From positions 17,112,001 to 17,176,000 of the forward strand of contig NC_047069.1 in NCBI RefSeq assembly GCF_902459465.1: a stretch of DNA of 64,000 nt, in the 5' to 3' direction. The notes beneath the pieces are model-generated. The model was not told the DNA's origin and ran no database searches. It was given only the letters and a program-made list of their open reading frames with translations. Made by a program: the position numbers and the translations under genes. How positions within the stretch are numbered: the first letter of the stretch is position 1; the number at the start of each line of letters is the position of its first letter. This DNA comes from Asterias rubens. Lineage: Eukaryota. Positions 1,499 to 46,232 of this stretch are shown piece after piece.

Positions 1499-2844
1499 TG
1501 CCATAATTTGTCGCCCCCTCTTATATATATATATATATATTTTTTTTTCATGATACCTATGAAAAACTATAGACGGGCCAAAAACAATATTCTTTTTCAT
1601 CAAATAGTACAAATCTTTGTTTTGCTGTCAATGAGGGAAAAATATGTGTCGTCGGAAAAAGTCAGAAATAAGTAGTGCAGTGAAAGACCAGGTACAGATA
1701 TGGCACACTTACACTGTAAACAATATCCATGCTGTGTTCCTAGAACTCGAAACGTTTTGGCAACAGCACTCAAAAATGGAACCATGTCCAAATTATTGGA
1801 CCAAACCATATTCCCGCATAGTTTGCACTCTATCACCTACACACTTTTAAAACAATCCTTTTGACTGTGTTGGATCACTTGGTATATGTGTTGTACTTCA
1901 ATTCCAATGGATAAGTACCACTGGAGAAGAGGAGTCGCCAACAAAAACATTTTTCCCCAAACATACTCCTTATTAAACTCTTATGAGGAGTCTTCAGGAG
2001 ACCTTCCCCCTCAATCTTGCATATGATCACCGATATTATTTTTACTGAAAAAAAACCAAGCTTTTTTGAAGATTGGTGTCATTTCTTCAAACACTTCTTT
2101 TAATGCTGGATGAACACGCAAATCACATTCTACCAAGCCAAACATCAATCCCTTAACAATGAAATGCAGGATCTCACGCTGGGTCATCCTTTTTTGGTCG
2201 AAGTGTGTGGGACGGATTGTCTTAAAGAATTTTCTCAAATCTAAGTTTCCCTTGATTTCTGTTTCCCATTGGCATTCAGTTATCTCAATAAGGTTATATC
2301 CCTGATCCTTGATGTAAGACAACATTTTTTTCCGTCTCTACTTGTAGCTGTGCATAGCTCTTTTGTCTCATTTCATTATAATTTGTTTTGTTGAGGAAGC
2401 AGTTGTGTTCTTGCCAGAAACACCATGAAATTAGTAGACGGTTTGAGTCTGATGACAAAAACCGTCTGCAGGAATGTTTCTTGCCCCTACTCGTTTTTCT
2501 TTTCCATTGAATTTGTTTAGGATATGTACACCTTGCGCTTCTGACTCTCAGCATTCTGTGGCCCTTATCCCATACTTTTGACTCTGTGTCGGCTCACAGT
2601 TTTCCTTGGCTTTTCGTCTAACGAAGGCACCAGTTGGCATATTTTGCATTAGTGCCCACAAATATAAGGCATTGGCAACAAAGCCTATTACCTTTATGCA
2701 TAATTTGTCGCCCCCTCTTGTATGTTTTTTTTTTTTTTCTCATGATACCTATGAAAAACTTTAGACGGGCCACCAACAATATTTTTTTTCATCAAATAGT
2801 ACAAGTCTTTGTTTTGCTGTCAATGAGGGAAAAATATGTGTCGT
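1499..2844 (-). pseudogene. polB: Polinton/Maverick-type protein-primed family B DNA polymerase fragment, ~1.1 tandem units (locus 1)
   Basis: Translated pieces AISVPGLSL.YLF, K.NIVGGPSIVFHR, VIGFVANALYLW (motif A with D>V), GLVECDL, MTPIFK. Several frameshifts; the sequence repeats with a 1197-bp period. Confidence 0.85.
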
Positions 2845-2989
2845 GCAGAAATGAATGGAAAGCTTTGGGATATTCGTCATATTGAAGCCTTGGGCAATCA
2901 CATCCAGATTGTGTATCAACATCTACTTTTAGACATAGTGACATTACTTATCAAAGATAGACATGAAGCAGACCTTCCCCCAAGTCAAT

Positions 2990-3960
2990 CTGATAAGAAA
3001 GTACCATTATCCAAGGATGAATGAGAATCTAGTGGGAAGGTTGCCATCATCTCCTCATCAAAACCCATCATTGCCTCCTTTATGGTTGACTCTTGCTTGA
3101 GCTCGAGAGAAACACTTTCCTTCTCCAACAGTGCGGAAATCTTTGCTTGTAGAGCAGTATTGGAACGTCTCGGGGCTCTTCTCTCGGCAGAAAGTTGATG
3201 TGCCTTTTGTTGCAGCTGCAACACTGACAGACTGCAGTTTGGAATCTTGGATGATGCAGTAATGATGACTCCTTCCTTCGCCTTCACTCGATACAACATG
3301 GCAGAAAGATCACTTTGATGACAGATGCATCGCATCGAGTGACAGATGGCCCGGTGAGTAGTAGTCTGCATCTAAGGTGCCGGATGGTTCCCTCTACCAA
3401 AGAATCTTGAGGTGTTATAAACATCGGCACCTGCCCATCGTTTCCCGTCTTTGATAGCACCAGCTCTTGGAAGTCACTATTCCCCTCACAAATGACCCCA
3501 CTTGATATCGAAGAGCAAAGCCGCTCACAGTCATCTTTCCTCGATATTTCTGGAACTTGAAGTGCGGGACAACTAGAATCATCCACCACAACACCTGCTA
3601 TTTTTAGCTTCCACGAGAAATCTGAAAACACACTCAGATACACAGCTACGTAACCCTCGGCCCGGTCGTCATAATCTGAAGAAAATCATTCCCGAACCAA
3701 GTCAGAAGCCTTGATCTCTGGGCTGCAGCCTCATAATCACTGAGCAAAGATTTTATAGATGGAGATTTTGCTCTGCAGCGGTCACATTCGGTCGATTCAA
3801 ACACTGCTACATCGATGTTGCATATGGCAAACCTGTTGTTCTTCTTACTAAAACTCTTCCACCACTGCCTCACCTTAACTTCACACAATTTGCAGATATA
3901 CGGAGGATAGATATCTGCATCTTCTACGAAGGCACTCTGAATGAAGAAGCATTCTTGAAC
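2990..3960 (-). pseudogene. N-terminal half of a RAG1-NTD-like/P-element transposase family member (paralog of 48386-52162)
   Basis: EDADIYPPYICKLCEVKVRQWWK, LSVFSDFSWKLKIAG, ICEGNSDF, TIRHLRCRLLL and ALQAKISALLEKESVSL align in order with THPPFLCHNCFKKLDLW, LSIFNDVSWRVDVCG, VCTGNGDY, TIRHRKCSLLV and ALQEKVRLMIEGDSITL of the 628-aa ORF. Confidence 0.8.
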
Positions 3961-5245
3961 CTGTCAGCACAAACAAATATTTGTTATTTTTATAATAGTA
4001 AATGATAGTTAATGTTTGATTTAAATTTGCACTTAATTTAGTAACAAAATCTTTATCTATTCCCAAACCCAAATTGGCCCATGCACAAGGGCTAACAACA
4101 CCAAGGAGAGCTTTAAAATTAGTTTAAAAAGCAGTGACTTCACGAGCGAGGGGTGAGGGAAATTAAATATGAACTTAATTAAAAAGAAAACGTAGAAATA
4201 AAACAGAATATTAATCTCGTAAAACTAAAAGTTGTACTAAATAGTGTCTATTAAAATTAAAAATTAAAATAATGGGTTTTTTTTGTAAGGCATAGTCAAT
4301 TGGTAGGGAGATGGGGAGGTCCAGACTGTGTAGAGAAATATTATAAATGCACACTGCACTGGTGAGGCACATAAACAAAAACAACCAAACTAAAATCGAA
4401 ATAATTCTTTAAAATCATACAAATTATTTTTAAAATGGTTGGACAAGCCCCCCAAAAAAACGAGTGGACATGAAAGACCTCTGAATCTGATAATCTTACC
4501 TATCCTACCCAAACTAAAAAACGAATAACACTAGGTTTATGAATTAAAATCCAAGTTAAAAAAGTAACATATCAAAAATATAAGTTCCCATATTAACAAC
4601 ATTAAAAGCGATAAATCGATGGTTAAAAAAAAAAATCCCATAACTTTTGTGTTAAAAAATCGTAAAGAGTTGAGCATCCTCATATCAGAAAGAACAAGGA
4701 CGTATGCTTCTAAAAATACCAATTTCCAACGCCGACGAACACCGGAACACCCTGAAAACCCATTTTTAATATTATCATAATATATAGTATTTCATACTTT
4801 ATCCAGAATTGTAATCATGTACTAACCTTGGTGGAAAAGGTCGAAAATTTTCGATCAAAACATTGTTGCAATCAGAATTTCACGCAGAATCGTTTGGAAA
4901 AGATGGCGCATAGAAAAGCGGCTTGTAAACACTACTGCGCATGTGAAAACTGGTTGTTTTTTGATTGTATGTGCAGATCATGTTTACTCCAGTATTGCTT
5001 GAACGATGACATATGCGTGTCCTGTGAACGAGATCGCGGCACTGGACACTGCACACAGAAGACGTTATCGCGGTCGTAAACCTGGTGAGCTCAGCCAGTG
5101 GCCCCATAGGTTTAGTGCAGGATAGCCAAAGGCGCTAATGGGATTAATTGGCTGTGGTTTTTCGTTCCAACTCCTTCTAATTCAACCTCCATGCTGTAAC
5201 TACCCGTTTTTCTTTTCCATTAAACTTGTGTAGAATATATACAAA

Positions 5246-6540
5246 TTGCGCTTCTGACTCTCAGCATTCTGTGGCCCTTATCCCATACTTTTGACTCTGT
5301 GTCGGCTCACAGTTTTCCTTGGCTTTCCGTGTAACAAAGGCACCAGTCGGCATATTTTGCAACAAAGCCAATTACCTTTTTGCATAATTTGTCGCCCCCT
5401 CTTATATGTTTTTTTTCTTCATGAGACCTATGAAAAACTATAGACGGGCCACCATCGATATTCTTTTTCATCACATAGTACAAATCTTTGTTTTTGCTGT
5501 CAATGAGGGAAAAATATGTGTTGTCGAACAAAGTCGAAAATAAGTAGCGCAGTGAAAGACCAGGTACAGATATGGCACACTTACACTGTAAACATATCCA
5601 TGCTGTGTTGTTCCTAGAACTCAAAACGTTTTGGCAACAGCACTCAAAAATGGAACCATGTCCAAATTATTGGACCAAACCATATTCCCGCAAAGTTTGC
5701 ACTCTATCACCTACACACTTTTAAAACAATCCTTTTGTCTGTATTGGATCACTTGGTATATATGTGTTGTACTTCAATTCCAATGGATAAGTACCACTGG
5801 AGAAGAGGAGTCGCCAAAAAAAAAAAAAAAATTCCCCAAACATACTCCCTATTAAACTCTTATAAGGAGTCTTCAGGAGACCTTCCCGCTCTGCATTATC
5901 TTGCATATGATCACCGATATTATTTATACTGATATAAGCATTTTTGAAGATTGGTGTCATTTCTTCAAACACTTCTTTTAATGCTGGATGAACATGCAAA
6001 TCACATTCTACCAAGCCAAACATCAATCCCTTAACAATGAAATGCAGGATCTCACGGTGGGTCATCCTTTTTTTGTCGAAGTGTGTGGGACGGATTGTCT
6101 TAAAGAATTTTCTCAAATCTAAGTTTCCCTTGATTTCTGTTTCCCATTGGCATTCGGTTATCTCAATAAGGTTATATCCCTGATCCTTGATGTAAGAAGA
6201 CATTTTTTTCCGTCTCATCTTGTAGCTGTGCACAGCTCTTTTGTCTTATTTCATTATAATTTGTTTTGTTGAGGAAGCAGTTGTGTTTATGCCAGAAGCA
6301 CCATGAAATTGGTAGACGGTTTGAGTCTGTTGACAAAAACCGTCTGCAGGAATGTTTCTTGCCACTACTCGTTTTCTTTTCCATTGAATTTGTTTAGGAT
6401 ATGTACACCTTGCGCTTCTTACTCTCAGCATTCTGTGGCCCTTATCCCATACTTTTGACTCTGTGTCGGCTCATAGGTTTCCTTGGCTTTTCGTCTAACG
6501 AAGGCACCAGTTGGCATATTTTGCATTAGTGCCCACAAAT
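5246..6540 (-). pseudogene. polB: Polinton-type PolB fragment, ~1.1 tandem units (locus 2)
   Basis: Highly similar in DNA to locus 1; ORF 5721..6233 GYNLIEITECQW...TPIFKNAY...; internal period ~1164 bp. Confidence 0.85.
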
Positions 6541-7400
6541 TTTGGCTAGTTGTAGCTGATCGAGTTTACCAGAATTAAGATCCCTGTACCAATCATGCTG
6601 TAATGTAGCAGTAGTTCTTATTCAGCTAGATGTAGCTGATTGAGACTGCCATGCTTATTTCAGCAAACCTAGTCATAAGGATGTGTAGTTTATAGATGTA
6701 GCCAATTGAGTTTACCAGAAGTGAGATACCAAATTCCAATTAAGACCCATAATACCTGCACCAATAATGCTGTACTGAGTGGTAGTTCTAATTCAGCTAG
6801 ATGTAGCTGATTGAGACTGCCATCCTTATTTCAGCCACTCCAGTCATAAGGACAGTTTATATATATTATACAACAATATCCTGAAATGGAAGGCCTGGCT
6901 ATCAGTGGCTGTGGCTTAATCATCCTTTGAACAGCGGCTGAAGTATAGGTTGCCCACAGCAACACTCTTAGCCATAACATAGCGACAGCCATCAACTCAA
7001 ACACCACTATGTTCCCATTTGCAATGTAGTGGTATACTAGTTTGGCCAGGTGTGGCTGAATGAGAATGCCACAAATACATGCAAAGACATTGCTTTGATG
7101 GATCATTTGGATGTAAGACTAGTGAATTTTAATGGCATGCTAGTTTGGCTAGATGTAGCTGCATGAGTGTGTCATTAAATAAGGAAACCGATGTCCGTTA
7201 ATTTGCATCATTTAAGATGTAAGAAGTTACAGGTGCAAAAAACAGTCATTACTGACATTACATTTTACAAGTAAGCTGTAATTGTTACGGAGATGTAATT
7301 GTGAACACACATTACCCAAATTATGCATACTATGTTGAAATGTGAATTGTTAGGGTTAAAGAGGTTGATTTGTAGGATAGGTTGGTTGAAACTTAAATTT
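6541..7400. repeat. Non-autonomous repeat module with multiple GCTAGATGTAGC(T/C)(G/A)ATTGAG motifs (copy 1, partial)
   Basis: Motif at ~6546, 6625, 6695, 6794 and 7147; colinear with 8700-10440 and 60460-62331. Confidence 0.75.
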
Positions 7401-7749
7401 TTCAAGAATGGATGGTAGTTATTATTCCCTAGATGCTAACAGGAATAACGTCCTTGTCTGTCTGATGTAGGGATGATATTGTCGCAACTGGTGGCATTGG
7501 TCAATCTATCAGGGATAGAGCCTTAGCCTACTTCGTCGCTGATTGGTTGTTTGAGTGATGGACATGGAATGATCCGGGTTTGCTTGTTGGCCATCAGTAT
7601 GCATCCTCTCTCAAAGTGCACATTGTTATGACATCTCCAGAGTTGTAATGTTGGCAGATGTTGTCATATGTGACACACCTTATAGCTCCTGTCTGGTCTG
7701 CTAAACTAAGTTGATGTGCCTTGTCGATTTTGAGCATTTTCACAATTTG

Positions 7750-8300
7750 AGCTCTTAGTGCTTTTGGATACGGCTCTTTTTTTGGAGGATGTTCCACTAG
7801 ATCCGGCAAGGATGCACTGCTTCAGCCGAAGTTCAGCAAATTTTGAAAATCCAACTTTCAGATTAGGATTTTTTTCTTTGAAAAGTTCAAACACTTCTTT
7901 CAGATTACAAAGAACAAGATGTTTCTGGAGATGTTTCTTCTCACCGTCAACAGTAACTGATACAAAGTCTTTCATCCCTGGCATTTGTCTGCTGACGGAC
8001 TCAGATAAATAAAAGTCTCTCACAGTTTTCCAGCCTTAGGATTTGGAATGGAAAGTATTCCAGCCTTAGGATTTGGAATGGAAAGTATTCCCTGCTCATT
8101 CACCAGTTTCTTTGCTTTTCTTGCCATGTAGTTTGATGCTCCAAATTCATCTGCTATTCTTTTGATACTCCAACTCACTGGTAAGACAGTCAAGACTTGA
8201 ACTTTTTCACTTTTCTTGGTCAAGGAATGAAACTTTTGTTTCAACTGAGTTATCATCTCACTTTAATCATCACCGAACTGTTTTCCTGTAACGGTTTCCA
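7750..8300 (-). pseudogene. Fragment of a DNA-transposon protein (uncharacterised family, possibly CMC/Chapaev-3-like)
   Basis: Motifs VLTVLP.SWS.KRIA.EFG.S.YMARKAK, DFY...SR.MPG.KDFVSV, QKHLVLCNLKEVF..FK and GFSKFAELR.KQC..AGSSGT. Includes a 30-bp tandem duplication at 8028-8087. The superfamily call is tentative. Confidence 0.55.
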
Positions 8301-8699
8301 GTTTCTGCTTTATTGTTGTCTCTATTCGCTTAACTTTGTTTTCCATGTAACTTCCATGAGCTTAGTAGTTTGTGTACTACCCCTGACTACTACATTAAAA
8401 GAGCTGGGTTCTAAAAAGTTGTTACATTTTGTTTAGTCTAGTCAATTGAGCAGACAACAAATATTGTTGATGAATTGAAGAACTACATGTACACTGTAGA
8501 AAGTGTCTGGAAGTTATGATATGAGTACCAGAGTTGCCAACAGAAATTTCCATGAAAAAAAAAACCAATCAATCTGCCAATGTTCTGCGTGAACAATTTC
8601 CAAATTATCCCTGGTGATTAATTTGTCCATTATATGTTGATCAAACCATCTCCCTTATTGTTGTAGAAAATCTCCTTGATTTCAAGATATTGGTAGCTC

Positions 8700-10440
8700 T
8701 GGAATAATATAGGGCAGAAGGTATTTTATGTTGACCTGATGTAGTCAACTGAATTTGCCTGAATTTATTTTAAAATTTGTAAATCTTGGTTTAGCTTTCA
8801 TTGTTCTTGTGAAAATCTTTCAGGTCTTTATGTAAGTTAAGTTAATGTGTCCTAAAATATCTACATACATTTCTATGCAAGAATGGTATTCATTCTACTT
8901 GAATATGATATCAGATTTGTTTTGCCCTTGGGAAAATATGATTTTTTTTTCTTCAAAATAAATAACCTGAAAAGTCTGTGTAAGCCAACACCATTGGCAT
9001 TTGGTTCATCCCTTGTACACCAAGGGCCAAATACAATGCCTGCAGTCTGTCTATGTACATTGTATGTGAGTGGTGTGCTATGCAGGCTAGATGTAGCCAA
9101 CTGAGTGTGCCATAACTATTTGATGGACACCAAACCCCACTTTAGTGTAAGCACTGTACCTGTCATTGAGAATATAGTGGGAATTCTAATTTGGCTCATA
9201 CCCAACTCATACATGTAGACAGATACATGTACATGTGCAAGACACACATTTTTCTTCAAACGTATCTGTAATTACAGAATGCTTGTAACTTGGCTTCATA
9301 GATTTAACCGATCCAGCAAGCAATCAAAATCAGAGATAAAATTGAAAGTTCAAAATAAAATTGTTGACAATGCAAAAGGGACACATCCCTGGTAATCTAT
9401 TTTGGCTAGATGCAGTCAATTGAGTTTACCAGAAGTGAGAAACCGAATTCCAATTAAGACCCATTATACCTGTACCAATAATGATGTACTGTAGTGGTAG
9501 TTCTAATTCAGCTAGATGTAGCTGATTGAGACTGCCTTGCTTATTTCAGCCACTCTTGTCATAAGGATGTGTAGTTTAAAGATGTAGCCAATTGAGTTTA
9601 CCAGAAGTGAGATACCAAATTCAACTAAAGACCCACTGCACCAATAATGCTGTATTGTAGTGGTAGTTCAAAGTTCAGCTAGATGAAGCTGATTGAGACT
9701 GCCATGCTTATTTCAGCCACTCTTGTCATAAGGATGTGTAGTTTATAGACACAACATCATCCTGAAATAGCAGGCCATCAACTCAGACATGCCCAGATTG
9801 TGGGCACCACCGTGTTCCCTTCTGCGATGTGGTATGCTAGTTTGGCCAGGTGTGGCTGAATGAGAATGCCAGAAAACATAAAGAAATTGCTTGCTGGATG
9901 CTAGACTAGTGAAGTATCTATAAATGACAAGCTAGTTTGGCTAAATGTAGCTGCATGAGCGTGTCATTAAAGATAAGGACATCAATGTCCATTAATTTGC
10001 ATCATTTAAGATTTAAGAAGGTACAGGTGCAATAACCAATTATCACTCAAAAAATGAAATCTTTTTTGGGACCAGATGAAATTGGGTTTGAATTCCTTGT
10101 TCATAAAACATTGGCTTGCAAGACACTTGATTTGAATAACTTTTTCATTAGGTTTCACACAAACTCAAATTACAAGTGCAAACTCTTAGAACTTTGCGTG
10201 CCTTTCAACCTGATTTTATCTAAACATGATCTGAAATATTTCAAAAAGTCCAATGAGAGCCAAATCAAGATTTCAAGAGGGCTTAGACGCTCCCATTCAT
10301 CATACAATTGAAGAAGACTTGGTTATTTTTGACTGAGGCAATTATATGCCTTCCAAGGATACGATTGTGGATCCAGCGGCAATTTATTCTTAGTTGAAGG
10401 AATAAGTGTCGTTGAATCTTGCTTAGGCACATTAATCAGT
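8700..10440. repeat. Non-autonomous repeat module with GCTAGATGTAGC motif array (copy 2); TTAA-flanked end
   Basis: Seven to eight motif copies between ~8736 and ~9960; ends ggaataagtgtcgttgaatcttgcttaggcacattaa, like 62290-62326. Another partial end at ~10742-10830. Confidence 0.75.
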
Positions 10441-10523
10441 AAAATGTATGGGTGCTCGGCAGACTCCTTTTGATCTGCCATCAATTGCACTCAATATTTT
10501 GAGTAGGAGCACCAGTGGTGGGA

Positions 10524-10699
10524 CAGGCCTGATACTTCACGGAGGCAACGAAGGCAATTGCCTCCGTTGCCCCTGGTCATTGCCTTGGTGCCCGTGAAAT
10601 GCCACAGTAGAAATTTACAATCCCTTATAGGTTGCCCTTTACCTAGGAGAAAATGCCTTGGTCCCCTTGCCCTTTCAAAAAAGGAAGCATACAGGCCTG
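10524..10699. mobile_element. MITE with CAGGCCTG termini (hAT-like)
   Basis: Starts caggcctga and ends tacaggcctg; gtggga is duplicated on both flanks (6 bp, or 8 bp tggtggga if the ends are shifted). Confidence 0.7.
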
Positions 10700-11789
10700 G
10701 TGGGATCAACGAAATTTAAGGAGTGGTTTACTGTGAGATATTTAACAATTCCTGACTGAGGCAATGATAGGCTTTCCAACAGTCCGATATGATTGTGGAT
10801 CCAGTAGCAACATATTCCATAGTTTACTGGAAATAATTAACAAATATATATGCAAGTTCAACTGATGAGTCATGAATTTGACGAAAGGGCAATTAGCAGC
10901 ATTCAAGGTTAACAACAAAAAAACAGACAATTTATGGCATTCTTGTCATATTTTTCCATATTTTTCAAACTGAAAAAAAAACTACCACTCAATAAGTTTG
11001 TATAATTTGAAGAAATTGTAGCAGCCCAAAATTTAAAGGGCTTAACAAGCTGCTGATTGGCCTCTTGAACAGTGTATACTGATGTTCAATTTATTTGTTT
11101 AACTAAGTTAATAACAAACCTTATTTCTATGGAAAGTGCAAAATATGGAGACTGCAAGCTTAGACTGATGAGGGAAACCTCTTGCCCAGTACAGTGGATG
11201 TAATACCTGCTGAAACCAATTGGCAGCAAAGTGACTGTTTAAACTCTGTAATAATTGATACCAGAGCTTAGTGACATATTTCAGTGTAGGTCAAAATATT
11301 GTATAAATGCAATTTACATAATCCCCCCCCCCCTATCACTTCTGCAAAAATGAATAATTTATTGTTGACCAGTGGTTTTTATAGTAATGTTTTCTCCACT
11401 TATCGTACATGAAGGAAACAAAATGTAAGACATCCTAATAATTTTTTTTTAATTTGTAAAATTTGTAAAAGTGTACACAGTGCATTTTTCCAATGATGTT
11501 TATCATCCATTTTCATGATGTGTATCGTCCGTTTTCATGATGTTTAGGGACCCAAGACAGGGTCAAAGGTGAAGAAGAGGTTTCATCATTCCAAAGGTGC
11601 TGTTACTCATCAATGGTTTGAAAGACTTTAAATCAGATAGGAGCATTTAGACCAAGAGGATTACACTGAGAGGTGCAATCGATCCAGACTTGAAGGTATT
11701 CGGGGATTACGATTCATATGAAAACTTTTATTTTTAGCAAGTAGATACACACTGTTATCACAAACATATTGATACCTGACCATGCAATG

Positions 11790-30562: not shown

Positions 30563-30574
30563 CTTTTCCCTTCT

Positions 30575-30770
30575 TTTTTGTAGACCCTACTCCATAAGAC
30601 ACAGTGTTAAAGGAACCCTACACACACTCCAACTCGCCAAGAAAACCCTACACGCATCTAATGTACGTAAATGAAAATCAGCATTTTCCTACCCATCTCA
30701 TTTTGTAGACCCTACAACCCTACTCCATTAGACACAGTGTTAAAGAAACCCTACACACACTCCTCATATG
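30575..30770. repeat. ~133-bp-period direct duplication containing CACAGTG
   Basis: ccctactccat.agacacagtgttaaag.aaccctacacacactcc occurs twice. Confidence 0.75.
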
Positions 30771-31884
30771 AATTTGTTACCCCCTGTTTTGTTCACCTAA
30801 CTTGACTGTTTAATTCATACCATGTGTGTACTGAACACAGTGACTGGGCTCACTGAGAGGATTAGCACTATCTCTGTGTGGGTGTGCGTTTGTCTGTGAA
30901 CCCTGACTTTGGGATCTTCCATTCACAAAATGGGTAAAGCCTTTGTTAAATCCTTATACATGTACACCACTGACAACAGTGATTAATCAATGATAATGAG
31001 ACACAGTATTTCAAAAAGAACTTACTACTTGTATTTATTTCTCATTACAAAACAAGTTACAGTGTCACTTGTTAATGATACATTACATTATATACATTAT
31101 ATCCCAAAGTGCATCACTATTAATATTTATATGTTAAAAAAAGAAGCTGGAAATAAACAAAATACAACTGAATGCTAAGGTATCTCACTTGGAAAAAAAA
31201 TCTGTAAATTTCTCAAGGAAAGGGGTATTCTGATAAATAAACAGAAAACAAAACTAATTACTTTGAACACAGGAACGTTTATTGTGGCCTTCATTGTCAC
31301 AATTACTGCAAGTTATCTTGTGCTTTAGTTCACGCTTGCAACTTGGAGAAAGATATTCGATTCTATTCTGTTTGTTCATTAACTGGGTTAAACAGGCATG
31401 CAACTCTTCCGCGTTTCCGCGGAATTCCGCGTTTTTAAAAAACTGATTAGCACTAAGAAAAACATTCCGCGGTTAGCGCGATCTTAAGACAATTTACAAC
31501 AATGCATCGTAACGCATGGTCTGGCCTCTGCCGCGGCACGCAATCCATTCTACTGCATGGTCAATCTAAAGCCCACAGCAAGCAATGCATACGTTTACAC
31601 ACTGCGTGCGGTCATTAATAGCCGTGTGTACGGTCAAAGAATCTCAAACAGTGGAACGCACCCCGTGGCGCAGGCGAGTTGTGTGCTAAACCAAGTTATT
31701 ATACAGCCTTGAAATGAGTCTAAGGTCATGTCTTCGTCTGGTCCCGCTATTTTGCAATAGTATACACGTTGTGTACATGTACTGTGTGTGTGTGAGTTAG
31801 TTACCAAACGTACATGTATACTGCTGCTGTGTGCGAGTCTCACATTGCGCTACGAAACAGTCGCATCTTCAAACGTCCGTCAAA

Positions 31885-32165
31885 ATGACATCCAAAAGAA
31901 ATGATATTTTAGAGCGGGGCCGAGTGGTACCTGGCCAAATTAAAGCCATAGATAAAGGAGTAAAAAATACCTGGAAGTGGTTCTGGTTGGAAAAATAAGA
32001 CGTAGACGGTAAACTGCTCTCCGAAACCGTCCGGAAAGTGGACAAGCCAGGAATGGCATATTGTGATGTGCAAGACGGCAAGCGGGGACAAGTGGCTCTC
32101 ACCGACCATTGTAAGGCGGCAAAGCATCAGGAGTTGATTAAGTTGAGGAAAACTAACTATTGTTT
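31885..32165 (+). pseudogene. N-terminal fragment of a hAT-type transposase (zinc-finger region)
   Basis: IDKGVKNTWKWFWLEK*...VRKVDKPGMAYC...RG..AL.DH....KH; internal stop and deletion. Confidence 0.55.
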
Positions 32166-32360
32166 CCCAGGTAGTTATGAAATTTGCATAAAATTATTAT
32201 TCCACCCCCCAAAAAAAATCAAAAAAAAAAATCTGATTATTTTTTTTTTTTTTTTTTTTTGGGGGGGGGAAATAATAATTTTATTCAAATTTCATAATTA
32301 CCTGGGAAACAGTAGTTAGTTTTCCTCAACTTAATCAACTCCCAATGCTTTGCCACCTTA
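32112..32360. repeat. Fold-back inverted duplication, ~110-bp arms
   Basis: taaggcggcaaagcat..gagttgattaagttgaggaaaactaact...tcc.ccccc is mirrored by gggggggga...agttagttttcctcaacttaatcaactc..atgctttgccacctta. Confidence 0.85.
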
Positions 32361-32521
32361 GAATTACGGTGCATACATGATACATAGGCAAGGTGTTTTT
32401 CCATGTTATTTTAGTTGTATAAAACACTTCACTTTGTCTTTGCCATACATGCTAAGATTGATCCTAAGAGTACACTTTTTAGGGTACCATTGTGGGTCTC
32501 GAAAAGTTTCCTCTTTTTTTT

Positions 32522-33055
32522 TCATCGGGCAGTTGCATGCCTGGTTAAAGCATCCAAAATGTGATGATTGGTGGCTTTAAAGTACCAACTTGTTATACGA
32601 TCATTCAACTTTTCAAAAGTTTGCTGAGAAAATTTACTTAAGTTACCATGCATTTCAATTGAGCTTTTCACATGCTTTGCAAAAACATGCATATACAGAG
32701 TTACATCGTTGGAAGTGTGCACTCGATAGTAATCATCGACCCAAGATTTTGTTTTGGATCCAAATTGTTCTAGTTGTTCATGATCCATATCCGTTTTCAT
32801 TTCCTCTTTCAATTCTACGAATCGTGACCATAGACTTTTCAACAATTCTAGTTTTGGGTGATCTCTGCCATAAAAATTGTCTAGACATATAGCTTTCTGT
32901 ATCTTTTCATGTTGTAGCATTTGTTTCCTCAGAAATGTCAACCTAAGAACGGTTTTTAATTCCACTGGTACAGTGCTAAAAAGCCATGCAAGCACAGACC
33001 ACAGGATGTCAGTGGGGGATCTCGAGATAAACGTTTGCCTTATGGGTGAAACCAT
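32522..33055 (-). pseudogene. Transib/RAG1-core-like transposase, C-terminal fragment (copy C)
   Basis: TLYMHVFAKH, FSQQTFEKLND, FKATNH. Confidence 0.7.
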
Positions 33056-33771
33056 TCATCGAGAAAAGGGGTGCACATAAACTTTTGTGTGAGGGTGTGC
33101 ATTATATGTGTACAGCCTTTTCCTTAATGATTATACAGTACATTATTAAGAAAAGTGGACATACACAACATAATTTCAAATTGAACTCTTCCGAGCAAGA
33201 ACAAATTTATTTAAACAGAAAAAGAAAGTTTGATAAAACGAAAACAATTATGTACACTGCTAGTGCTACTATTCCTACAGTGATGAAAAAAAATATACAT
33301 GTACACAGGTAAACATATTTTGTCTGTTACATGAAACAAGTTCCATTGGCAAAATTCACTTGTAAAAGTTGTACTTAACCCACCTCTTTGATCAAAATGA
33401 GGAACTATAAAGGCAGTCAAAATCATCTTGTTTGAAACAACATTTTTATCAAACAGCACGTGATTGGTTTTGGAATGGATGCGTTCATCTAGTTTAAGAA
33501 GTATATAAGTTAAAACAAACTCAAGAATGAATGTCATCAGCTGTTGGCGTCTAATACTATAATTTCAGATACGATGTTTTTGCATATGACAGACTGGTTT
33601 TTGTATGAACTTCACAAACATTAAGATTTAAAAAAACTTCTACATACAATAACAAAGTTGTTTGTATCGAAACTAACATTTTTTCGAACATACATACATT
33701 AAATACATTAATTAAAAACTGTTAGAATATGCATCCTTGTTAAATTGGATACGTCAACATTAAACATCAAC

Positions 33772-35956
33772 TCAATCCAGGGCTCCTTTCTGTAGTAAAA
33801 GAGGAACATTTTGGCTTACAGAGCAAGATGGCTTGTAATGTCCTTCATTTCCACACTTAGTACAGTGTGCTGTGTTTGACTTTCTATGACAAGATGGGTA
33901 CAGATAAACAATTCTGTTGGCCTTTTGAATGATCTGTTCCAGGGCTTGTAAGTTTGATATTTTGTGATTTGAGCCTCGAAAATAACTCTTTGTAATCTGG
34001 TCATTCAGTTTTTCAAAACTCTGTTGTGAAAATCGGTTCAGGGAGCCATGGTTTGTTAGCACTGCAGCAACATGTTTTACCATGACATGCATATAATATG
34101 TGATGTCCCTTTTCTGGTAAACAGTGGAATATAACTTAACCCATGCTTTTGCTTCGTTCTGAAATTTCAAAATTCCATTTACATCCAAGTCCTGTTTCAT
34201 TTGCTCCATTAATTTAGGAAAGTCATGCCATAATTTTCAATGTCACTCAGCTTTTTATGCCATGGCATGAGGTTTTTTAGGTTGATTTGGAATTGAATTG
34301 TTTTATGTTCAGGACCTGTGAAATCTCGATATTCAAGCAATCCGGTTTTGTCGGTAAAGCAGGTCCATTTAATACCAATGCCGGTGATGAATAATTCAAA
34401 CTTTGCAAGATTCTGCTGCTGCTTGTCATTAGTTTTAGAATTTTTGATTATATTATCCTGGGTCTTCAATTCGAGAATTAATTTTCGAATGAGCTGATCT
34501 GAAATTCGAAGATATAAATGAAGTGTATCCATAACAACATTGCTGTAGTCAATAGAGAACATCGGTTGGTTAACACAAGCAAAGAACTTTAATCTGCTTT
34601 TACCAGGCATCTTTGCAAGTTTGCGGGTTTCTTCCAAACTTCTTAATTGACAATCAGCTTCCACATCAAACAACAGTATTTACTTGAACAAGCACCAATT
34701 CCCATCATTTCATTCATAAATTTTAAATCTGCACAAAAGCAAAACTGAAGAGTCAATGTTATCGCCTTAAAATCAAATGTATTTGTACTGGAAATGAAAT
34801 TTATTGTATCATCAAGTACAGGTTTCAGCAGATGGTATTTTTCTGGACATGTTGTGATGGCTAGTACGTGATCAGTTGAAACAAAGTTTCCAATTATAAC
34901 CACAAATCCAATGTTGGTGACTTTTAGTCGTTTCCCACAGGTAGTTCCATCCCCAGTTATTTTTACTTTGACAATGTCTTTGTCTTTCAGTGACAGTTCT
35001 TGGTGCAAAGCCTGCATATGCTCCAGTGCCAAAAAGAGCTTGTCCTCCAACCTCTCTGTCACGGCATTTGACTCTTCAAGTTTTTGAACTTTAAACATTG
35101 AATTTATTGCTTTGGCTCTCGTCTGTATTGACAACAAGGGTGGCATCAACCCATTGCTTTCCAATGCATATTCACGATAAGTCACATCGGGAACACAGTG
35201 TCTGTCTTTCAAAAACAATGACTTATCAACAGACAATTTAGTGTGCTCACATTCATTTTCAATTGAGCCGGCCCTGTGTATATTTCCGTACTTGTCTCCA
35301 AGAACTAGGTGTTTAGGAAGAAATCCTTCCTGGAGAAGAAAATCCCATGTAACATTCACTTCATTTTGTAACTGCTGTTTTTGTTTGGATTTCCATTGCC
35401 TTGAATACGTTCCCTTAGATTTCACACTACGCTTTGTTCCTACCCTCCTCTTAATGATCCTGGAGAGCAAAGTGTGGGCTTTCTTAGTTTGTTTTTTGCA
35501 TTTCTTGGCTTCATTACTGACCTTTTTAGCATGTTCTTCCGCAATCTTCCTTTTTTTCCATTCATTTTCAATCTCATGCAGAATTTTTCTTTTTGCACCA
35601 CAAAGTTTAAGTTTATAAATTTGTTCTTTGAATGCCGACACTTGCCTGCCTCCCTGGTTTAGCACAACTCGAAATTTACCAATCAATTTCTTAAGTTTAG
35701 AACGAAGGGCATTAACTGCCCGAGTAAGATGGACATATGACAGATCAATCTTGTTGCTTGCACACAGGTTTTCTAAGACTGATTTGGCAGCTGACTCGGT
35801 GCGAAGTGCATGTCCACTAGATTTTGCTAGTTCATGAAGAGCAAAATTGCTTACTTCAATTACCCAATCATCATTTGGATTTGACAGAGCCAAGTTTTTT
35901 ATCAAAACCATTGACAGTAAAACAAACAGCACAAACCAAAACTTAACAAGTGCCAT
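33772..35956 (-). pseudogene. Transib/RAG1-core-like DDE transposase, copy B (at least two lesions)
   Basis: KVKITGDGT, CADLKFM, MDTLHLYLRISDQL, RDFTGPEH, YYMHVMVKH, FSQQSFEKLND, CTKCGNEGHYKPSC. Confidence 0.75.
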
Positions 35957-36109
35957 GTTAACTATTATCTGAGAATTTAGCAAGAGTTAGCAAAAGTTAA
36001 ATCTGGAAAACAAAGTACCAAGTTATCACATTTTACGACCCTTGTGCTATATTTGATTTGGCTAGAGTTTAAATACAATGTATGTATGTATACCTGTTAG
36101 TGTTACATG

Positions 36110-37760
36110 ACAGGTTCCCTCAAAATGTTTCAAAATGGTTCCAGTGCAGGTTTCCGCAGGTGCGATGCTTTGAAGGTGTTCGATACATTCAGGCAGTCGA
36201 AAAATTTGTCAAAAAACTCAACAAATACAACTGATGCTACAACTGATGCTACAACTGATACTACAACTGATACTACAACTGATACTACAACTGATACTAC
36301 AACTGATACTACAACTGATACTACAACTGATACTACAACTGATACTACAACTGATACTACAACTGATACTACAACTGATACTACAACTGATGCTACAACT
36401 GATGCTACAACTGATGCTACAACTGATGCTACAACTGATGCTACAACTGATACTACAACTGATACTACAACTGATACTACAACTGATACTACAACTGATA
36501 CTACAACTGATACCATGGCTTTCTTGTTGAACTGTTGGTTAAAAAGAAGTATGTAATTACAATAACTGTATATTGCCTTAAATATAAAAGGTTTTTAAAA
36601 CACACAGTTGACAATAACATTTGAAAATAGCAATTGAATGTCACTTCACCGTTATTTTTCAAGTTTAAAAGATTGGAAGAAATGCAAAGTTTGACATCAA
36701 CAAGTTTGTGATCTTGTGAACCCAAAAAATTACAACAGGACTTACACAAAGGGTCTTGGTCTAACTGTGATATCCGGAGTTCTCCCAGTTGTTGCGAGTT
36801 GTCTTGACAAGATGAGGGACGTCGCAGATGAAGAAAACATGACGGTCAGGATCGCAAGGATTGGCAGTGAAGTACGTAGCCTCTGCGGTTGCTTCTGAAG
36901 AATGCAGTCGATAAAACTTCCGGTTCGGTGATGCGCCGTCGGAAACCAGGGCACGTACCTGAAAGCCGGCCAACTCAAGGAAAACAATGGCCTCCCACAT
37001 GCATGGATACAGTTGGTCACTGCTGACGCCTGTACTCGGGTAGTATCCAACTGGTGCATGGAGTGCACTGAAAATTCCTAGAACCATGAGGGTAAGCACA
37101 TGACTGGCCACTGCCGGCTCCGACTCCCCACGACATTTCCTTTCAAAATCGGCCACCTCATTTGCTAAACTTCCCACATCAGTAAACCGAAGTACCTTTC
37201 CCGACCTCACTGAAAAGGCCAGACCCGCCTTGACTTTCATCTCATCAAACAGCAATGAAACATTCCTCTCATGAACCGGGCAAGACAAAATATAGTTATC
37301 TTGCACAACCCTGTTGAGCATCGCTGCATTAAACCCGGTTGTTGGATCGGCAAAGTGGGTATATGGATGCAGTATGCTTGGATGAGGCAACTTCAAAAAC
37401 CCACTCTGCCGAAGAAGATTAAAGAAGTTGAAGATTTACTTTGAAGGGCAATGCACCAACGTATGATTGCTGGGTGCCAGCAGATCTGCTGGCCCTTCGC
37501 AATGGCTTCTTTTTGTTGTTCCCACAACAAATCAGCTGCTGACCCCTTCTCAATGGTGTTTCCGAGAACTTCTTCACACTCAGCAAAGGTTCACTTTAGT
37601 TGGTCATTCTGCTCGTCAGAGACACAAAACGCCTCTCTTGTCATCAGCTCCGAGACTTTCTCCTGAAGCAGAACCCCACGACACTTTAAATTTCTTTTTT
37701 CCTTCTGCAGGAGTTACACCTTTTCCTGCAGCTGTCTTGACGTCAGTCGGATATTTGGCG
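36110..37760 (-). pseudogene. P-element/THAP9-type transposase remnant (central and partial C-terminal)
   Basis: LLWEQQK, WHPAIIR, LFDEMKVK (D), LVSDGASPNRKFY (D), CDVPHLVKTTRNN, FFDCLN. Confidence 0.85.
36228..36513. repeat. 12-bp tandem repeat caactgat(a/g)cta, ~24 copies
   Basis: Direct reading; translates to (TTDT)n on + and (SVVV)n on -. Confidence 0.95.
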
Positions 37761-37868
37761 TGGAGGCAATGGAAACATCTTGCCTTTTCTTGGCGCGTTC
37801 TTGCGAAACCATCGACATCAAGTCACCGCGATGCACCATGCATATGTCGCATCTCACCTTCCCCTCGG

Positions 37869-38400
37869 TCATGAGCTGGCAATGCTGGTGTTGTATGACT
37901 CGCCAACAAGGTAGTTCACCTGCTGTGTAACCCCTTCACAGTGGACACCAAAAATGCCAAGTTTCCTTGGTGTCAGAAAGTAGACGGGGCCAGGCTGCAT
38001 GGGGTCCGATGGGTAATGCACTTGCTGTGCAAAGTCAAAAGAATAGTGCATAGCGATGCGTCTGCTACATGGGTCGTTTTGGCCAAGTCGAACTCCTTCT
38101 CGCTCTGCTGTTACCTTCGACTCTTTCACCAGATCCCAGTAGAAGGCCCTCTCCGTGGCCACATTGGTCAGATGATCCTGTTGTTTTCGACATCGCCCCT
38201 GCTTCTGGTCATCTGGAAGGTTGGCAGACTTGTAAACCAAGTTATTGTTTTTCTGACATTGCCAGCAAACATCCGACATTGGTTTGCAGCACACAATGAA
38301 GGGACAGACCACATTCCAGATCTTTCGAAATGTTGTCAGAGCAACCACCCTTGCATCATTCTTAAAGGTTGAGTTTGGCTGACACGTAAGTCGCTGATTT
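37869..38400 (-). pseudogene. Sola1-type transposase fragment
   Basis: KPMSDVCWQC, SFDFAQQVHYP, QPGPVYFLTPRK.GIFGV.CEG..QQVNYL. Confidence 0.75.
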
Positions 38401-38896
38401 TTGCACACGGCCACGTCGTCGGGTCTACTGTGCGCATGACCAACAGCGTCTTGTCCAGTCACAGTCCTTTATTCTATGCACGTGATCCGCTAACTACGTC
38501 ATCCTTAGCAACAAGGGTAGTTTGTTTACCACTTTATTTCGTTCATTACTCGTTTGGATTTGACCTATGCCCTTCAATATACCCAAATATGGATAGAGGA
38601 GACGTCAAGCTTTAAGACCATACTACGTTTTATCTAAGGGGGGTTTATCATGACTTTGTGAAAGAAGGGGGAAAATGTGTCACTTTTTCTGTTTCATGTA
38701 AGAAAACTAGATCGATGCAAGAGAACAACAAACTCAAAAATGATGGGTTTTTTCACTTTAATCAATCAAATCAACATTTCTGTAAATAAAATCTGAAACT
38801 TAAAACATTAAAGATATTATATAATTTTTTGTTTTCACCCTCTCTACGTGGAGCGGCCTATTACACGTTAAAGCATAGCGCGACTTATGTCACCTT

Positions 38897-39504
38897 TTAC
38901 CAGAGTGGGTCACATGTTTCAAATGAATGGCTGGATGCAGCAGGTTTTAGTCTCACTAGAACATCAAGGATTGCGAAATCTCGCTCAGAGATTGTGTTTG
39001 TTGTAGGAACATTCTTAGCAGACTCCTGGAGGGTTGGGGTTGGTTGGAAGTATTTTCCTCCCTCAAGCTGATCTTTGGCTTGTCTTTCCAAAATCAAAAC
39101 AATACCGGTCAGAATCATTTCCAGTGCAACCTGTGTATACGTATCAAAATCAGCATCTTGTTGATCAGAGAATAGTGCTTCGTACATCTCATCTTTGTGG
39201 ATTTCTACATCGGGAAATAATGGTTCTTCTTCCATCAGAGGTGTAGCATCATTAACCCACATCTTCAACTTCTGTAGCATCTGATTAAGTGGTATATTTA
39301 GGTCAAGTATGCTGGAAGTACTTTCTGCCAAGCCCCAAAATGGACCATTAACAACTTTTCCACCATGCCCAGTGCTCTAATTTGGGCAAGGTAGATCTTT
39401 TGCTGGACATCAAACTGGACGGCTTTTAGGAGGTTGTTTGGGTCTGGCAACGTAGATATGAAGTGGCAAATATGGTGTCTGTGAAAGTAAGTGGCGGCGG
39501 CATC
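38897..39504 (-). pseudogene. Second hAT-like (CxxH family) transposase fragment, fused to PolB DNA
   Basis: Closely matches 24500-25090 (PTTNTISERDF, QAKDQLEGGKYF). Confidence 0.8.
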
Positions 39505-41600
39505 ACCTATGAAAAACTATAGACGGGCCACCAACAATATTCTTTTTCATCAAATAGTACAAATCTTTGTTTTGCTGTCAATGAGGGAAAAATATGTGTC
39601 GTCGGACAAAGTCAGAAATAAGTAGCGCAGTGAAAGACCAGGTACAGATATGGCACACTTACACTGTAAACAATATCCATGCTGTGTTCCTAGAACTCGA
39701 AACGTTTTGGCAACAGCACTCAAAAATGGAACCATGTCCAAATTATTGGACCAAACCACATTGTCCCGCATAGTTTGCACTCTATCACCTACACACTTTT
39801 AAAACAATCCTTTTGTCTGTATTGGATCACTTGGTATATGTGTTGTACTTCGATTCCAATGGATTAGTACCACTGGAGAAGAGGAGTCGCCAACAAAAAA
39901 ATTCTCCCCAAACATACTTTCTATTAAACTCTTATAAGGAGTCTTCAGGAGACCTTCCCCCTCAATCTTGAATATGATCACCGATATTATTTTTACTTAA
40001 AAAAAAGAAGCTTTTTTGAAGATTGGTGTCATTTCTTCAAACACTTCTTTTAATGCTGGATGAACACGCAAATCACATTCTACCAAGCCAAACATCAATC
40101 ATCAATCCCTTAACAATGAAATGCAGGATCTCACGCTGGGTCATCCTTTTTTGGTCGAAGTGTGTGGGACGGATTGTCTTAAAGAATTTTCTCAAATCTA
40201 AGTTTCCCTTGATTTCTGTTTCCCATTGGCATTCGGTTATCTCAATAAGGTGTTATATCCCTGATCCTTGATGTAAGACGACATTTTTTTTCGTCTCTAC
40301 TTGTAGCTGTGCACAGCTCTTTTGTCTCATTTCTTTATAATTTGTTTCGTTGAGGAAGCAGTTGTGTTCATGCCAGAAGCACCATGAAATTAGTAGACGG
40401 TTTGAGTCTGATGACAAAAACCGTCTGCAGGAATGTTTCTTGCCACTACTTGTTTTTCTTGTCCATTGAATTTGTTTAGGATATGTACACCTTGCGCTTC
40501 TGACTCTCAGCATTCTGTGGCCCTTATCCCATACTTTTGACTCTGTGTCGGCTCACAGTTTTCCTTGGCTTTTCGTCTAACGAAGGCACCAGTTGGCATA
40601 TTTTGCATTAGTGTCCACAAATATAAGGCATTGGCAACAAAGCCAATTACCTTTATGCATAATTTGTCGCCCCCTGTTATTTGTTTTTTGTTTTCATGAT
40701 ACCTATGAAAAACTATAGACGGGCCACCAACAATATTCTTTTTCATCAAATAGTACAAATCTTTGTTTTGCTGTCAATGAGGGAAAAATATGTGTCGTCG
40801 GACAAAGTCAGAAATAAGTAGCGCAGTGAAAGACCAGGTACAGATATGGCACACTTACACTGTAAACAATATCCATGCTGTGTTGTTCCTAGAACTCAAA
40901 ACGTTTTGGCAACAGCACTCAAAAATGGAACCATGTCCAAATTATTGGACCAAACCACATTGTCCCGCATAGTTTGCACTCTATCACCTACACACTTTTA
41001 AAACAATCCTTTTGTCTGTATTGGATCACTTGGTATATATGTGTTGTACTTCGATTCCAATGGATTAGTACCACTGGAGAAGAGGAGTCGCCAACAAAAA
41101 AATTCTCCCCAAACATACTTTCTATTAAACTCTTATAAGGAGTCTTCAGGAGACCTTCCCCCTCAATCTTGAATATGATCACCGATATTATTTTTACTTA
41201 AAAAAAAGAAGCTTTTTTGAAGATTGGTGTCATTTCTTCAAACACTTCTTTTAATGCTGGATGAACACGCAAATCACATTCTACCAAGCCAAACATCAAT
41301 CCCTTAACAATGAAATGCAGGATCTCACGCTGGGTCATCCTTTTTTGGTCGAAGTGTGTGGGACGGATTGTCTTAAAGAATTTTCTCAAATCTAAGTTTC
41401 CCTTGATTTCTGTTTCCCATTGGCATTCGGTTATCTCAATAAGGTTATATCCCTGATCCTTGATGTAAGACGACATTTTTTTTCGTCTCTACTTGTAGCT
41501 GTGCACAGCTCTTTTGTCTCATTTCTTTATAATTTGTTTCGTTGAGGAAGCAGTTGTGTTCATGCCAGAAGCACCATGAAATTAGTAGACGGTTTGAGTC
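39505..41600 (-). pseudogene. polB: Polinton-type PolB fragment, ~1.75 tandem units (locus 3)
   Basis: acctatgaaaaactatagacgggcc recurs at 39505 and 40701 (period 1196 bp); same motifs as loci 1-2. Confidence 0.85.
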
Positions 41601-42052
41601 GGGAAATAATGGTTCTTCTTCCATCAGAGGTGTAGCATCATTAACCCACATCTTCAACTTCTGTAGCATCTGATTAAGTGGTATATTTAGGTCAAGTATG
41701 CTGGAAGTACTTTCTGCCAAGCCCCAAAATGGACCAATAACAACTTTGTCCACCATGCCCAGTGCTCTAATTTGGGCAAGGTAGATCTTTTGCTGGACAT
41801 CAAACTGGACGGCTTTTAGGAGGTTGTTTGGGTCTGGCAACGTAGATATGAAGTCGCAAATATGGTGTCTGTGAAAGTAAGTGGCGGCGGCATCACCTAT
41901 GAAAAACTATAGACGGGCCACCATCGATATTCTTTTTCATCACATCGTACAAATCTTTGTTTTTGCTGTCAATGATGGAAAAATATGTGTCGTCGGACAA
42001 AGTCAGAAATAAGTAGCGCAGCGAAAGACCAGGTACAGATATGGCACACTTA
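41601..42052 (-). pseudogene. Repeat of the hAT-like/PolB chimeric junction
   Basis: 41601-41894 copies ~39212-39504; 41895-42052 is PolB again. Confidence 0.85.
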
Positions 42053-46204: not shown

Positions 46205-46232
46205 TTAACAGTGGTATGATGGTACTTGCAAA

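What the first reader, a model, noticed from the sequence alone, without database searches (positions are those of the whole stretch)
1499..42052. One 1.2-kb circularly permuted PolB fragment inserted at three loci in three different phases
All copies share an unnatural head-to-tail junction (at ~1820, ~5690, ~39760, ~40960) that joins the C-terminal KDCFKS..GDRVQTMR segment back to the more N-terminal VWSNNLDMVPF segment. Periods are 1197, ~1164 and 1196 bp. Locus 1 starts near GGDKLC, locus 2 near SEAQ and locus 3 at FHR. Where the motif survives (loci 1 and 3) motif A reads VANALY (D>V); locus 2 has a deletion there. This suggests one ~1.2-kb circle or satellite monomer carved from a Maverick polymerase and re-integrated by rolling-circle/eccDNA or satellite spreading.
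Basis: partly seen in the sequence, partly recalled or inferred. Interest (0 to 1): 0.7.

Follow-up and report, generated by a model that had tools for sequence, protein, structure and literature searches.

The report
Dead Polinton repeat in transposon trap
A dead 1.2-kb piece of a Polinton (Maverick) polymerase gene forms head-to-tail repeats whose joint occurs only at this spot of the genome, likely because one tandem array was broken up and recopied locally, not because a DNA circle inserted three times, and it sits in a 164-kb block of same-strand open reading frames, many from transposons, that is likely a piRNA-type transposon trap.

Summary
In detail: three loci carry 1.13, 1.15 and 1.75 units of a 1,197/1,164/1,196-bp Polinton pPolB fragment joined head to tail. 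Open pPolB frames and linear relics elsewhere in the genome lack the joint, and contigs of other studies bridge it. The mechanism proposed is not supported. The joint occurs 4 times in the genome, all in the window. No locus has a target-site duplication or rejoining flanks, and no linear donor with the copies' lesions was found. All copies share a stop and a frameshift where they cover the site, so the monomer was dead before it multiplied. Locus edges are set by other elements: a Harbinger end, a young Polinton inserted into the array and recombined with a monomer, deletions, and a 2,389-bp second duplication. Unrelated neighbours are duplicated the same way. Best reading: one old tandem array, broken up and recopied locally. 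This is a candidate unistrand piRNA cluster; small RNAs could not be tested.

The parts
1497..2844 (-). Array piece 1: 1.13 units of the dead pPolB monomer (period 1197); joint at 1827/1828
2845..3963 (-). Truncated P/THAP-like transposase relic that abuts piece 1 without a target-site duplication
   Evidence: 3329-3909 is 34-38% identical to the TNP-like ORF 50279-52165; same edge seen in contigs of X3 and X6
5199..6540 (-). Array piece 2: 1.15 units (period 1164); joint at 5701/5702; 29-bp deletion over motif A; its right edge and the next 101 bp are shared with piece B, 13 kb upstream of the window
38917..39504 (-). Unrelated coding relic X (71% to 24504-25095; no Pfam hit for that homolog), cut off by the array at 39504/39505; 39210-39504 is recopied at 41599-41894
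39505..41600 (-). Array piece 3: 1.75 units (period 1196); joints at 39779/39780 and 40978/40979; units 3a and 3b differ by 1 substitution in 895 aligned bases plus 4 indels
41599..42052 (-). Second copy of a 2,389-bp higher-order tandem duplication (relic X plus the first 158 bp of the monomer), cut by a Harbinger end
   Evidence: 97.8% to 39210-39661; period; Harbinger edge seen in X1 and X7 contigs
42053..48385 (.). PIF/Harbinger element: terminal repeat after TTA at 42053, matching reverse repeat ending near 48385; Myb/SANT ORF on +, DDE_Tnp_4 transposase on -; sets the right end of locus 3
1..64000 (-). Window part of a roughly 164-kb strand-biased cluster of mobile-element relics (from about 100 kb upstream to the window's end); candidate unistrand piRNA cluster, whose precursor would be read from the + strand (inferred). 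Upstream parts outside the window (array pieces A and B, young Polinton arm) are listed under Noticed in passing

Best explanation
The repeats are fragments of a dead 1.2-kb Polinton polymerase segment with one shared head-to-tail joint, and they likely come from a single tandem array that was later broken up and recopied locally inside a strand-biased cluster of transposon relics that likely serves as a piRNA source. Steps: (1) a VSR-type Polinton pPolB relic decayed (shown: shared stop, frameshift and motif A change; 11-15% from the C7 relative); (2) one joining event made a head-to-tail array (joint shown; tandem duplication in place inferred); (3) insertions (Harbinger, a young Polinton of the same family), deletions and direct duplications of kb-sized blocks scattered the pieces over 61 kb on one strand (edges and duplicates shown; order of events inferred); (4) the young Polinton recombined with a monomer and lost its right arm (single switch shown; recombination inferred); (5) a + strand precursor across the cluster would yield piRNAs antisense to these elements (inferred, untested).
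For: The joint is confined to the window: 4 of 4 genome matches. All array-type matches lie within C8 -18.9 kb to +42.1 kb on one strand; the only other matches are linear relics on C7 and C22. The stop is present in 6 of 6 array pieces that cover it, the 1-bp deletion in 6 of 6 and the motif A change in 3 of 3; C7 lacks all three. No target-site duplications; flanks do not rejoin. Piece B and locus 2 share the same right edge plus 101 bp. B switches once, 26/26 then 43/43 sites. Inside the cluster, 41 of 42 alignments of at least 400 bp are direct, and 27 of the 42 involve no PolB, e.g. 8.4-11.7 kb is copied at -89 kb and 9.0-14.9 kb at -51 kb, at 90-98%. Cluster: 39 of 39 ORFs of at least 200 aa on minus versus 4 plus and 4 minus in the 200 kb upstream (19 blocks, p = 4e-6); a common 400-bp repeat 2 in 164 kb versus 35 in 200 kb and 8 in 60 kb. 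X3, X6 and X7 hold spliced mRNA contigs, so they are RNA-type, and they cover 30, 25 and 29 of 30 bins of 36600-40700.
Against: No old-type parent flank (ExoI/II or motif B/C) is left beside the array, so duplication in place is not shown and needs later deletions. The tree of the pieces is unresolved, so their order of origin is unknown. Only 15 of the 39 long ORFs have a clear Pfam hit (10 transposase, RT or packaging ATPase), so the others are transposon relics by inference. The Harbinger Myb/SANT ORF (198 aa, just under the cut-off) lies on +. The 4 long ORFs downstream, among host genes, are also on minus. RNA contigs show no strand or level, and the same runs hold a few intron contigs at depth 2.6-4.5, so pre-mRNA or DNA carry-over may explain the cover. 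No small-RNA data were laid.
Confidence: 0.7

Rival explanations
1. The first array arrived once as a rolling-circle concatemer of a 1.2-kb chromosomal circle cut from a decayed Polinton relic, and was then broken up locally as in the best explanation.
For: A circle joint and a tandem-duplication joint look the same. The joint is blunt against the C7 sequence. No old parent flank is next to any piece.
Against: No donor with the derived lesions was found in the genome: C7 and C22 keep the motif A aspartate. Flank loss by deletion is common here, since array edges abut truncated elements.
Confidence: 0.17
2. One circle or satellite monomer re-integrated separately at three loci in three phases.
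For: The joint is shared and the start phases differ.
Against: The joint is absent from the rest of the genome. All pieces lie within 61 kb on one strand. There is no target-site duplication and no rejoining flank. Edges coincide with a Polinton terminus, a Harbinger terminus, or the edge of another duplicate. Lengths are 1.13-1.75 units, not one. X1 contig depth over the unit is about 3-10 times that of the neighbouring single-copy DNA, which gives no hint of a large collapsed satellite (a rough figure, not a copy number).
Confidence: 0.06
3. The array history is as in the best explanation, but the strand bias reflects purifying selection in a long intron of a + strand host gene or a neutral low-recombination graveyard, not piRNA production.
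For: Low-depth RNA cover fits pre-mRNA. Neighbouring host genes are also on minus.
Against: Long-ORF density is about six-fold higher than upstream (39 in 164 kb versus 8 in 200 kb), and the common 400-bp repeat that fills the flanks is about 14-fold depleted. This points to a distinct, fast-turnover domain. No flanking + strand gene spanning the block was identified, though I did not search for one specifically.
Confidence: 0.3
4. The tandems are misassemblies.
For: Units 3a and 3b differ by only 1 substitution in 895 bases. Two small indels of 3a (at 40093 and 40250) are missing from contigs of all four runs laid, so local base errors are likely.
Against: Contigs of other studies bridge the joint, and their loose ends reproduce the edges of piece A, locus 1 and the Harbinger. 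X1 and X7 contigs branch at 39210 with doubled depth, as the 2,389-bp duplication predicts. Other copies differ by 3-11%.
Confidence: 0.04

Closest known systems
Polinton/Maverick with VSR-containing pPolB2 (bioRxiv 10.1101/2023.08.22.554363; passages read)
   Same: pPolB motif order, a VSR-like insert after motif A, terminal inverted repeats, 6-bp target-site duplications and a packaging-ATPase relic in the related family of this genome.
   Different: The window holds only a dead 400-codon internal piece in tandem. It has no termini of its own and cannot move by itself.
flamenco and flam-like unistrand piRNA clusters of Drosophila (PMC10643416, PMC10495008; passages read)
   Same: A block of over 100 kb rich in transposon fragments with strong one-strand bias, bordered by host genes at least on the right.
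   Different: flam-like clusters are enriched for Gypsy LTR elements and measure 227-1,085 kb in the passage read. Here the identified content is mostly DNA transposons (P/THAP, Transib/RAG1-like, Harbinger, a DDE_Tnp_1_7 transposase) and Polinton. piRNA output is not shown.
eccDNA-mediated duplication (PMC7188851; abstract and section 6 read)
   Same: Permuted order relative to a linear relative.
   Different: Those cases are permuted copies of 20-130 kb with a closely matching paralogue (95-97%). Here there are 1.1-1.75 tandem units, no matching donor, and edges made by other elements.
Antisense piRNA-like RNAs from endogenous DNA-virus copies in a starfish and a sea anemone (PMC6085071; passages read)
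   Same: Precedent for negative-sense 5'U small RNAs from DNA-virus-like sequences in non-arthropod invertebrates, which the authors ascribe to possible integration in or near piRNA loci.
   Different: Those are parvo/denso-like sequences, and no genomic cluster was mapped in the passages read.

Membership tests
Polinton/Maverick pPolB relic | Protein-primed family B polymerase homology | tested here: met
   Window pieces mostly 35-74% identical to natural frames L045/L046/L048; L046 hits DNA_pol_B_2 at E 3e-13
Polinton/Maverick pPolB relic | VSR nuclease insert (pPolB2 subgroup) | tested here: inconclusive
   L046 aa 459-533: Pfam Vsr E 0.011, below the cut-off; PDB 1VSR E 0.012. Position fits, score weak
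Polinton/Maverick pPolB relic | Parent family has terminal inverted repeats and 5-8-bp target-site duplications | tested here: met
   AGTAGT termini at 8 places; 6-bp duplications GCACCA (C11) and TATGTT (C20); the C7 copy links this terminus to a polB 82-90% identical to the array
Polinton/Maverick pPolB relic | Packaging ATPase gene | tested here: met
   Pox_A32/Adeno_IVa2 hits, E 3e-7, in the C7 and C8 arms
Polinton/Maverick pPolB relic | Integrase, protease and capsid genes | not tested
   Not searched for specifically; none turned up among the ORFs scanned
eccDNA re-integration | Permuted order against a linear relative | tested here: met
eccDNA re-integration | Closely matching linear donor elsewhere | tested here: not met
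   Best linear relatives are 80-90% identical and keep the motif A aspartate; the genome search scores only the best candidates
eccDNA re-integration | Flanks rejoin to an empty site or show a target-site duplication | tested here: not met
   0 of 3 window loci; piece A's edges were printed and read by eye, also none
Satellite DNA | Long, high-copy head-to-tail arrays | tested here: not met
   4 joints genome-wide; longest run 1.75 units
Unistrand piRNA cluster (flamenco-like) | Large block dense in transposon fragments with one-strand bias | tested here: met
   39 of 39 long ORFs on minus in 164 kb; control 4 plus and 4 minus; six element types by Pfam
Unistrand piRNA cluster (flamenco-like) | Long precursor transcript antisense to the elements | tested here: inconclusive
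   RNA-type contigs of three studies cover the 4.1 kb tested, and one X7 contig runs from relic X through PolB into the Harbinger end; strand and level cannot be read
Unistrand piRNA cluster (flamenco-like) | Uniquely mapping 24-32-nt 1U piRNAs from one strand | not testable with these tools
   All 24 runs offered are Logan contigs
Unistrand piRNA cluster (flamenco-like) | Gypsy LTR enrichment (flam-like definition in Drosophila) | tested here: not met
   Pfam hits of mobile-element type are DNA transposases, one RT fragment and a Polinton ATPase

The most novel reading that the evidence does not exclude
A 164-kb flamenco-like unistrand piRNA cluster aimed at DNA transposons and Polinton viruses in a non-insect animal. 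In it, tandem and block duplication multiplies antisense template against the Polinton polymerase, and the dead array also disarmed a newly arrived Polinton by recombination.
Probability: 0.35. Interest if true: 0.62.

Novelty: new member of a known kind. Interest (0 to 1): 0.37.

Why it matters
As a repeat, this is ordinary decay. It is a useful caution that permuted copies in different phases can come from one broken tandem array and need no circles. The surroundings matter more. A block with 39 of 39 long ORFs on one strand, near exclusion of the genome's common short repeat, and a Polinton caught inside a relic of its own polymerase is what a transposon trap should look like. If small RNAs confirm it, it extends unistrand clusters from Gypsy control in flies to DNA transposons and Polinton viruses in another animal group. 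It would also show that such clusters can be predicted from ORF strand bias alone.

Tried and rejected
Natural order across the joint: rejected by the C14, C19 and C7 copies. Genome-wide satellite: rejected. Target-site duplications and rejoining flanks: none. The left flank of locus 1 is unique in the genome and that of locus 2 only touches a short dispersed repeat, so no empty-site copy was found. C22 relic as donor: rejected, as it keeps the motif A aspartate and is 80-88% identical. C11 and C20 Polinton derivatives hold no polB match. A tree of six segments left all three inner branches open; 3b and 2a were left out as too short. Rfam: 0 matches in the window. Tandem Repeats Finder cannot see the unit because its longest period is 500. 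Earlier scan notes: nothing returned. In the host-gene control dispersed repeats swamped the depth table, so intron versus cluster cover could not be quantified. X3 and X6 contigs run across 39210 without a branch, a weak hint that the 2,389-bp duplication is polymorphic; contigs do not show absence. Paper searches: 'piRNA cluster + Polinton + echinoderm' gave 0; 'Maverick + Polinton + satellite DNA + tandem repeat' gave 11 listings, none on Polinton-derived arrays by title; some searches gave the papers cited. No supplements were opened, and subscription journals are mostly not covered.
Full report
Observation. Self-BLAST shows three same-strand loci (1497-2844, 5199-6540, 39505-41600) and a 158-bp piece (41895-42052) at 91-98% identity. 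Periods are 1197, 1164 and 1196 bp; joints are at 1827/8, 5701/2, 39779/80 and 40978/9. The window lies at G000:C8:17112001-17176000 of a 417.6-Mb genome in 150 contigs. Negative coordinates below are upstream of the window.

What the unit is. A protein search of the genome gave 20 matches, among them long open frames on C14 and C19. Against the C14 frame (DNA_pol_B_2, E 3e-13; weak VSR hits) each unit covers about aa 275-675: ExoIII, motif A, the VSR-like insert, up to just before motif B. It then returns to aa 275. A linear relic on C7, 82-90% identical, runs on into motif B/C and ExoI/II. It shows that the joint is GDR|QTMR, blunt against C7, with a net 27-bp loss beside it in the array. 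The C7 element ends in an AGTAGT terminal repeat found at 8 places. The C11 and C20 members have 6-bp target-site duplications, and C7 carries a packaging-ATPase relic. The parent family is therefore a Polinton. VSR-containing pPolB2 is described for marine nematode and mollusc Polintons (10.1101/2023.08.22.554363, passages).

The monomer was dead before it multiplied. Array pieces differ from each other by about 3-5% (2a by 9-11%; 3a versus 3b by 1 in 895) and from C7 by about 11-15%. A stop is shared by 6 of 6 pieces that cover it, a 1-bp deletion by 6 of 6, and the motif A change by 3 of 3; C7 has none of these. This argues against amplification of a working viral gene or of a freshly cut viral circle.

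No spreading. The joint 30-mer (up to 2 mismatches) occurs 4 times in the genome, all in the window, and the control pattern 0 times. The unit search gave 16 matches: 9 on C8 between -18.9 kb and +42.1 kb, and 7 in linear relics on C7 and C22 (only the best candidates are scored). No other match lies between -300 kb and +124 kb.

The phases are break points. No locus has a target-site duplication, and no pair of flanks hits one element. Locus 1 abuts a truncated P/THAP-like transposase. Locus 3 abuts an unrelated coding relic on the left. It contains a 2,389-bp higher-order duplication of that relic plus array, and ends at a Harbinger terminus. Upstream piece A (-18880 to -18212) ends exactly where a Polinton AGTAGT terminus begins. 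That arm is 99.4% identical to C7 over 3.3 kb, and its polB switches once, near -13.5 kb, from C7-type (26 of 26 sites) to array-type (43 of 43). It then ends at the same base and with the same 101-bp flank as locus 2. The simplest reading is inferred: a young Polinton landed in the old array and recombined with a monomer. Local direct duplication is general here. Of 42 alignments of at least 400 bp inside -100 to +64 kb, 41 are direct and 27 involve no PolB, including 8.4-11.7 kb copied at -89 kb and 9.0-14.9 kb at -51 kb, at 90-98%. Against duplication in place: no old parent flank survives, so a one-time concatemer insertion stays open. Published eccDNA duplications are permuted copies with a 95-97% identical paralogue (PMC7188851, abstract and section 6).

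Not an assembly artefact. I laid 4 of the 24 runs offered on 36600-40700. X6 and X7 contigs bridge the joint. Loose ends in X3 and X6 reproduce the Polinton edge of piece A and the right edge of locus 1; X1 and X7 reproduce the Harbinger edge. X1 may be the source sample and is not independent. Two small indels of unit 3a are missing from contigs of all four runs and may be base errors.

The surroundings. From -100 to +64 kb, 39 of 39 stop-free frames of at least 200 aa are on the minus strand (19 blocks, binomial p = 4e-6), against 4 plus and 4 minus in the 200 kb upstream; 4 of 4 downstream are also minus. Fifteen of the 39 have a clear Pfam hit, 10 of them transposase, RT or ATPase: P/THAP, RAG1/Transib-like, Harbinger, DDE_Tnp_1_7, RVT_1 and A32. 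One exception falls just under the cut-off, the 198-aa Harbinger Myb ORF on +. A common 400-bp repeat occurs 2 times in 164 kb versus 35 in 200 kb and 8 in 60 kb. Host genes (C2H2 zinc finger, F-box/WD40, TBC/kinase) resume from +74 kb. X3, X6 and X7 contain spliced contigs of the F-box gene and are thus RNA-type. They cover 30, 25 and 29 of 30 bins of the cluster stretch, and one X7 contig runs across three unrelated elements. Contigs show neither strand nor level, and a few intron contigs occur at similar low depth, so this is weak support. The layout resembles flamenco-like unistrand clusters (PMC10643416 and PMC10495008, passages) but with DNA transposons in place of Gypsy. Antisense piRNA-like reads from DNA-virus-like sequences, probably endogenous, are reported in a starfish and an anemone (PMC6085071, passages), and mollusc piRNA clusters are described (PMC6128900, start of abstract and 4 passages). 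piRNA output here is untested; I put it at about 0.55.

Verdict. Best explanation: one tandem array of a dead Polinton polymerase piece, broken up and recopied locally in a strand-biased transposon cluster (0.7). The repeat is ordinary; the cluster is worth a small-RNA check. Interest 0.37.

Noticed in passing
G000:C8 about 17,012,000-17,176,000 (window -100 kb to +64 kb): All 39 ORFs of at least 200 aa on one strand and the common 400-bp repeat about 14-fold depleted: candidate unistrand piRNA cluster. The left edge was not mapped finely; direct repeats at -104 to -95 kb may mark it.
   Followed up: partly
L025:1120-1788 (G000:C8:17093120-17093788): Array piece A, 18 kb upstream of the window, same strand; it ends where a Polinton terminal repeat begins.
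   Followed up: yes
L025:1789-6990 (G000:C8:17093789-17098990): Young Polinton arm (99.4% to C7 over 3.3 kb) inserted in the dead array and switching to array-type sequence (piece B); it shares a frameshift before motif B and an inverted exonuclease fragment with the C7 copy.
   Followed up: yes
L096 (C20, 8.4 kb) and L097 (C11, 5.9 kb): Elements with Polinton termini and perfect 6-bp target-site duplications but no polB match: likely non-autonomous derivatives with unexamined interiors.
   Followed up: partly
window 24100-35986 (-): Run of long ORFs without a meaningful Pfam hit (331, 235, 283, 493, 236 and 447 aa); the first two have larger relatives at -80 to -67 kb (up to 723 aa). Probably unclassified DNA transposon proteins.
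   Followed up: no
window 54627-55403 and L022:7505-8781 (-): RAG1-like (Transib/RAGL) transposase relics, best E 2e-35.
   Followed up: no
window 21538-22653 (-): GDSL/SGNH esterase ORF of 372 aa inside the cluster, possibly a retrotransposon ORF1 relic (recalled association, not tested).
   Followed up: no
window 15386-17210 (-) and L023:4731-5033: DEAD/DEAH-box helicase fragments that look RecQ-like (label from memory) among the transposon relics.
   Followed up: no
L026:5579-6373 (window -4421 to -3627): N-terminal piece of a second, more distant pPolB (44% to L046 aa 1-87) beside a zinc-finger ORF, also on minus.
   Followed up: no
window 36226-36513: 12-bp minisatellite, 24 copies, 98% matches.
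   Followed up: no
window 11843-12000 and 32108-32364: Near-palindromic stretches of 160 and 258 bp (85-89%), possibly MITEs.
   Followed up: no
window 39210-41598: X1 and X7 contigs branch at 39210 with doubled depth while X3 and X6 contigs pass through: the 2,389-bp duplication may be polymorphic.
   Followed up: partly
L071:1633-4830 (-): 1,066-aa stop-free frame with no Pfam hit, about 198 kb upstream.
   Followed up: no
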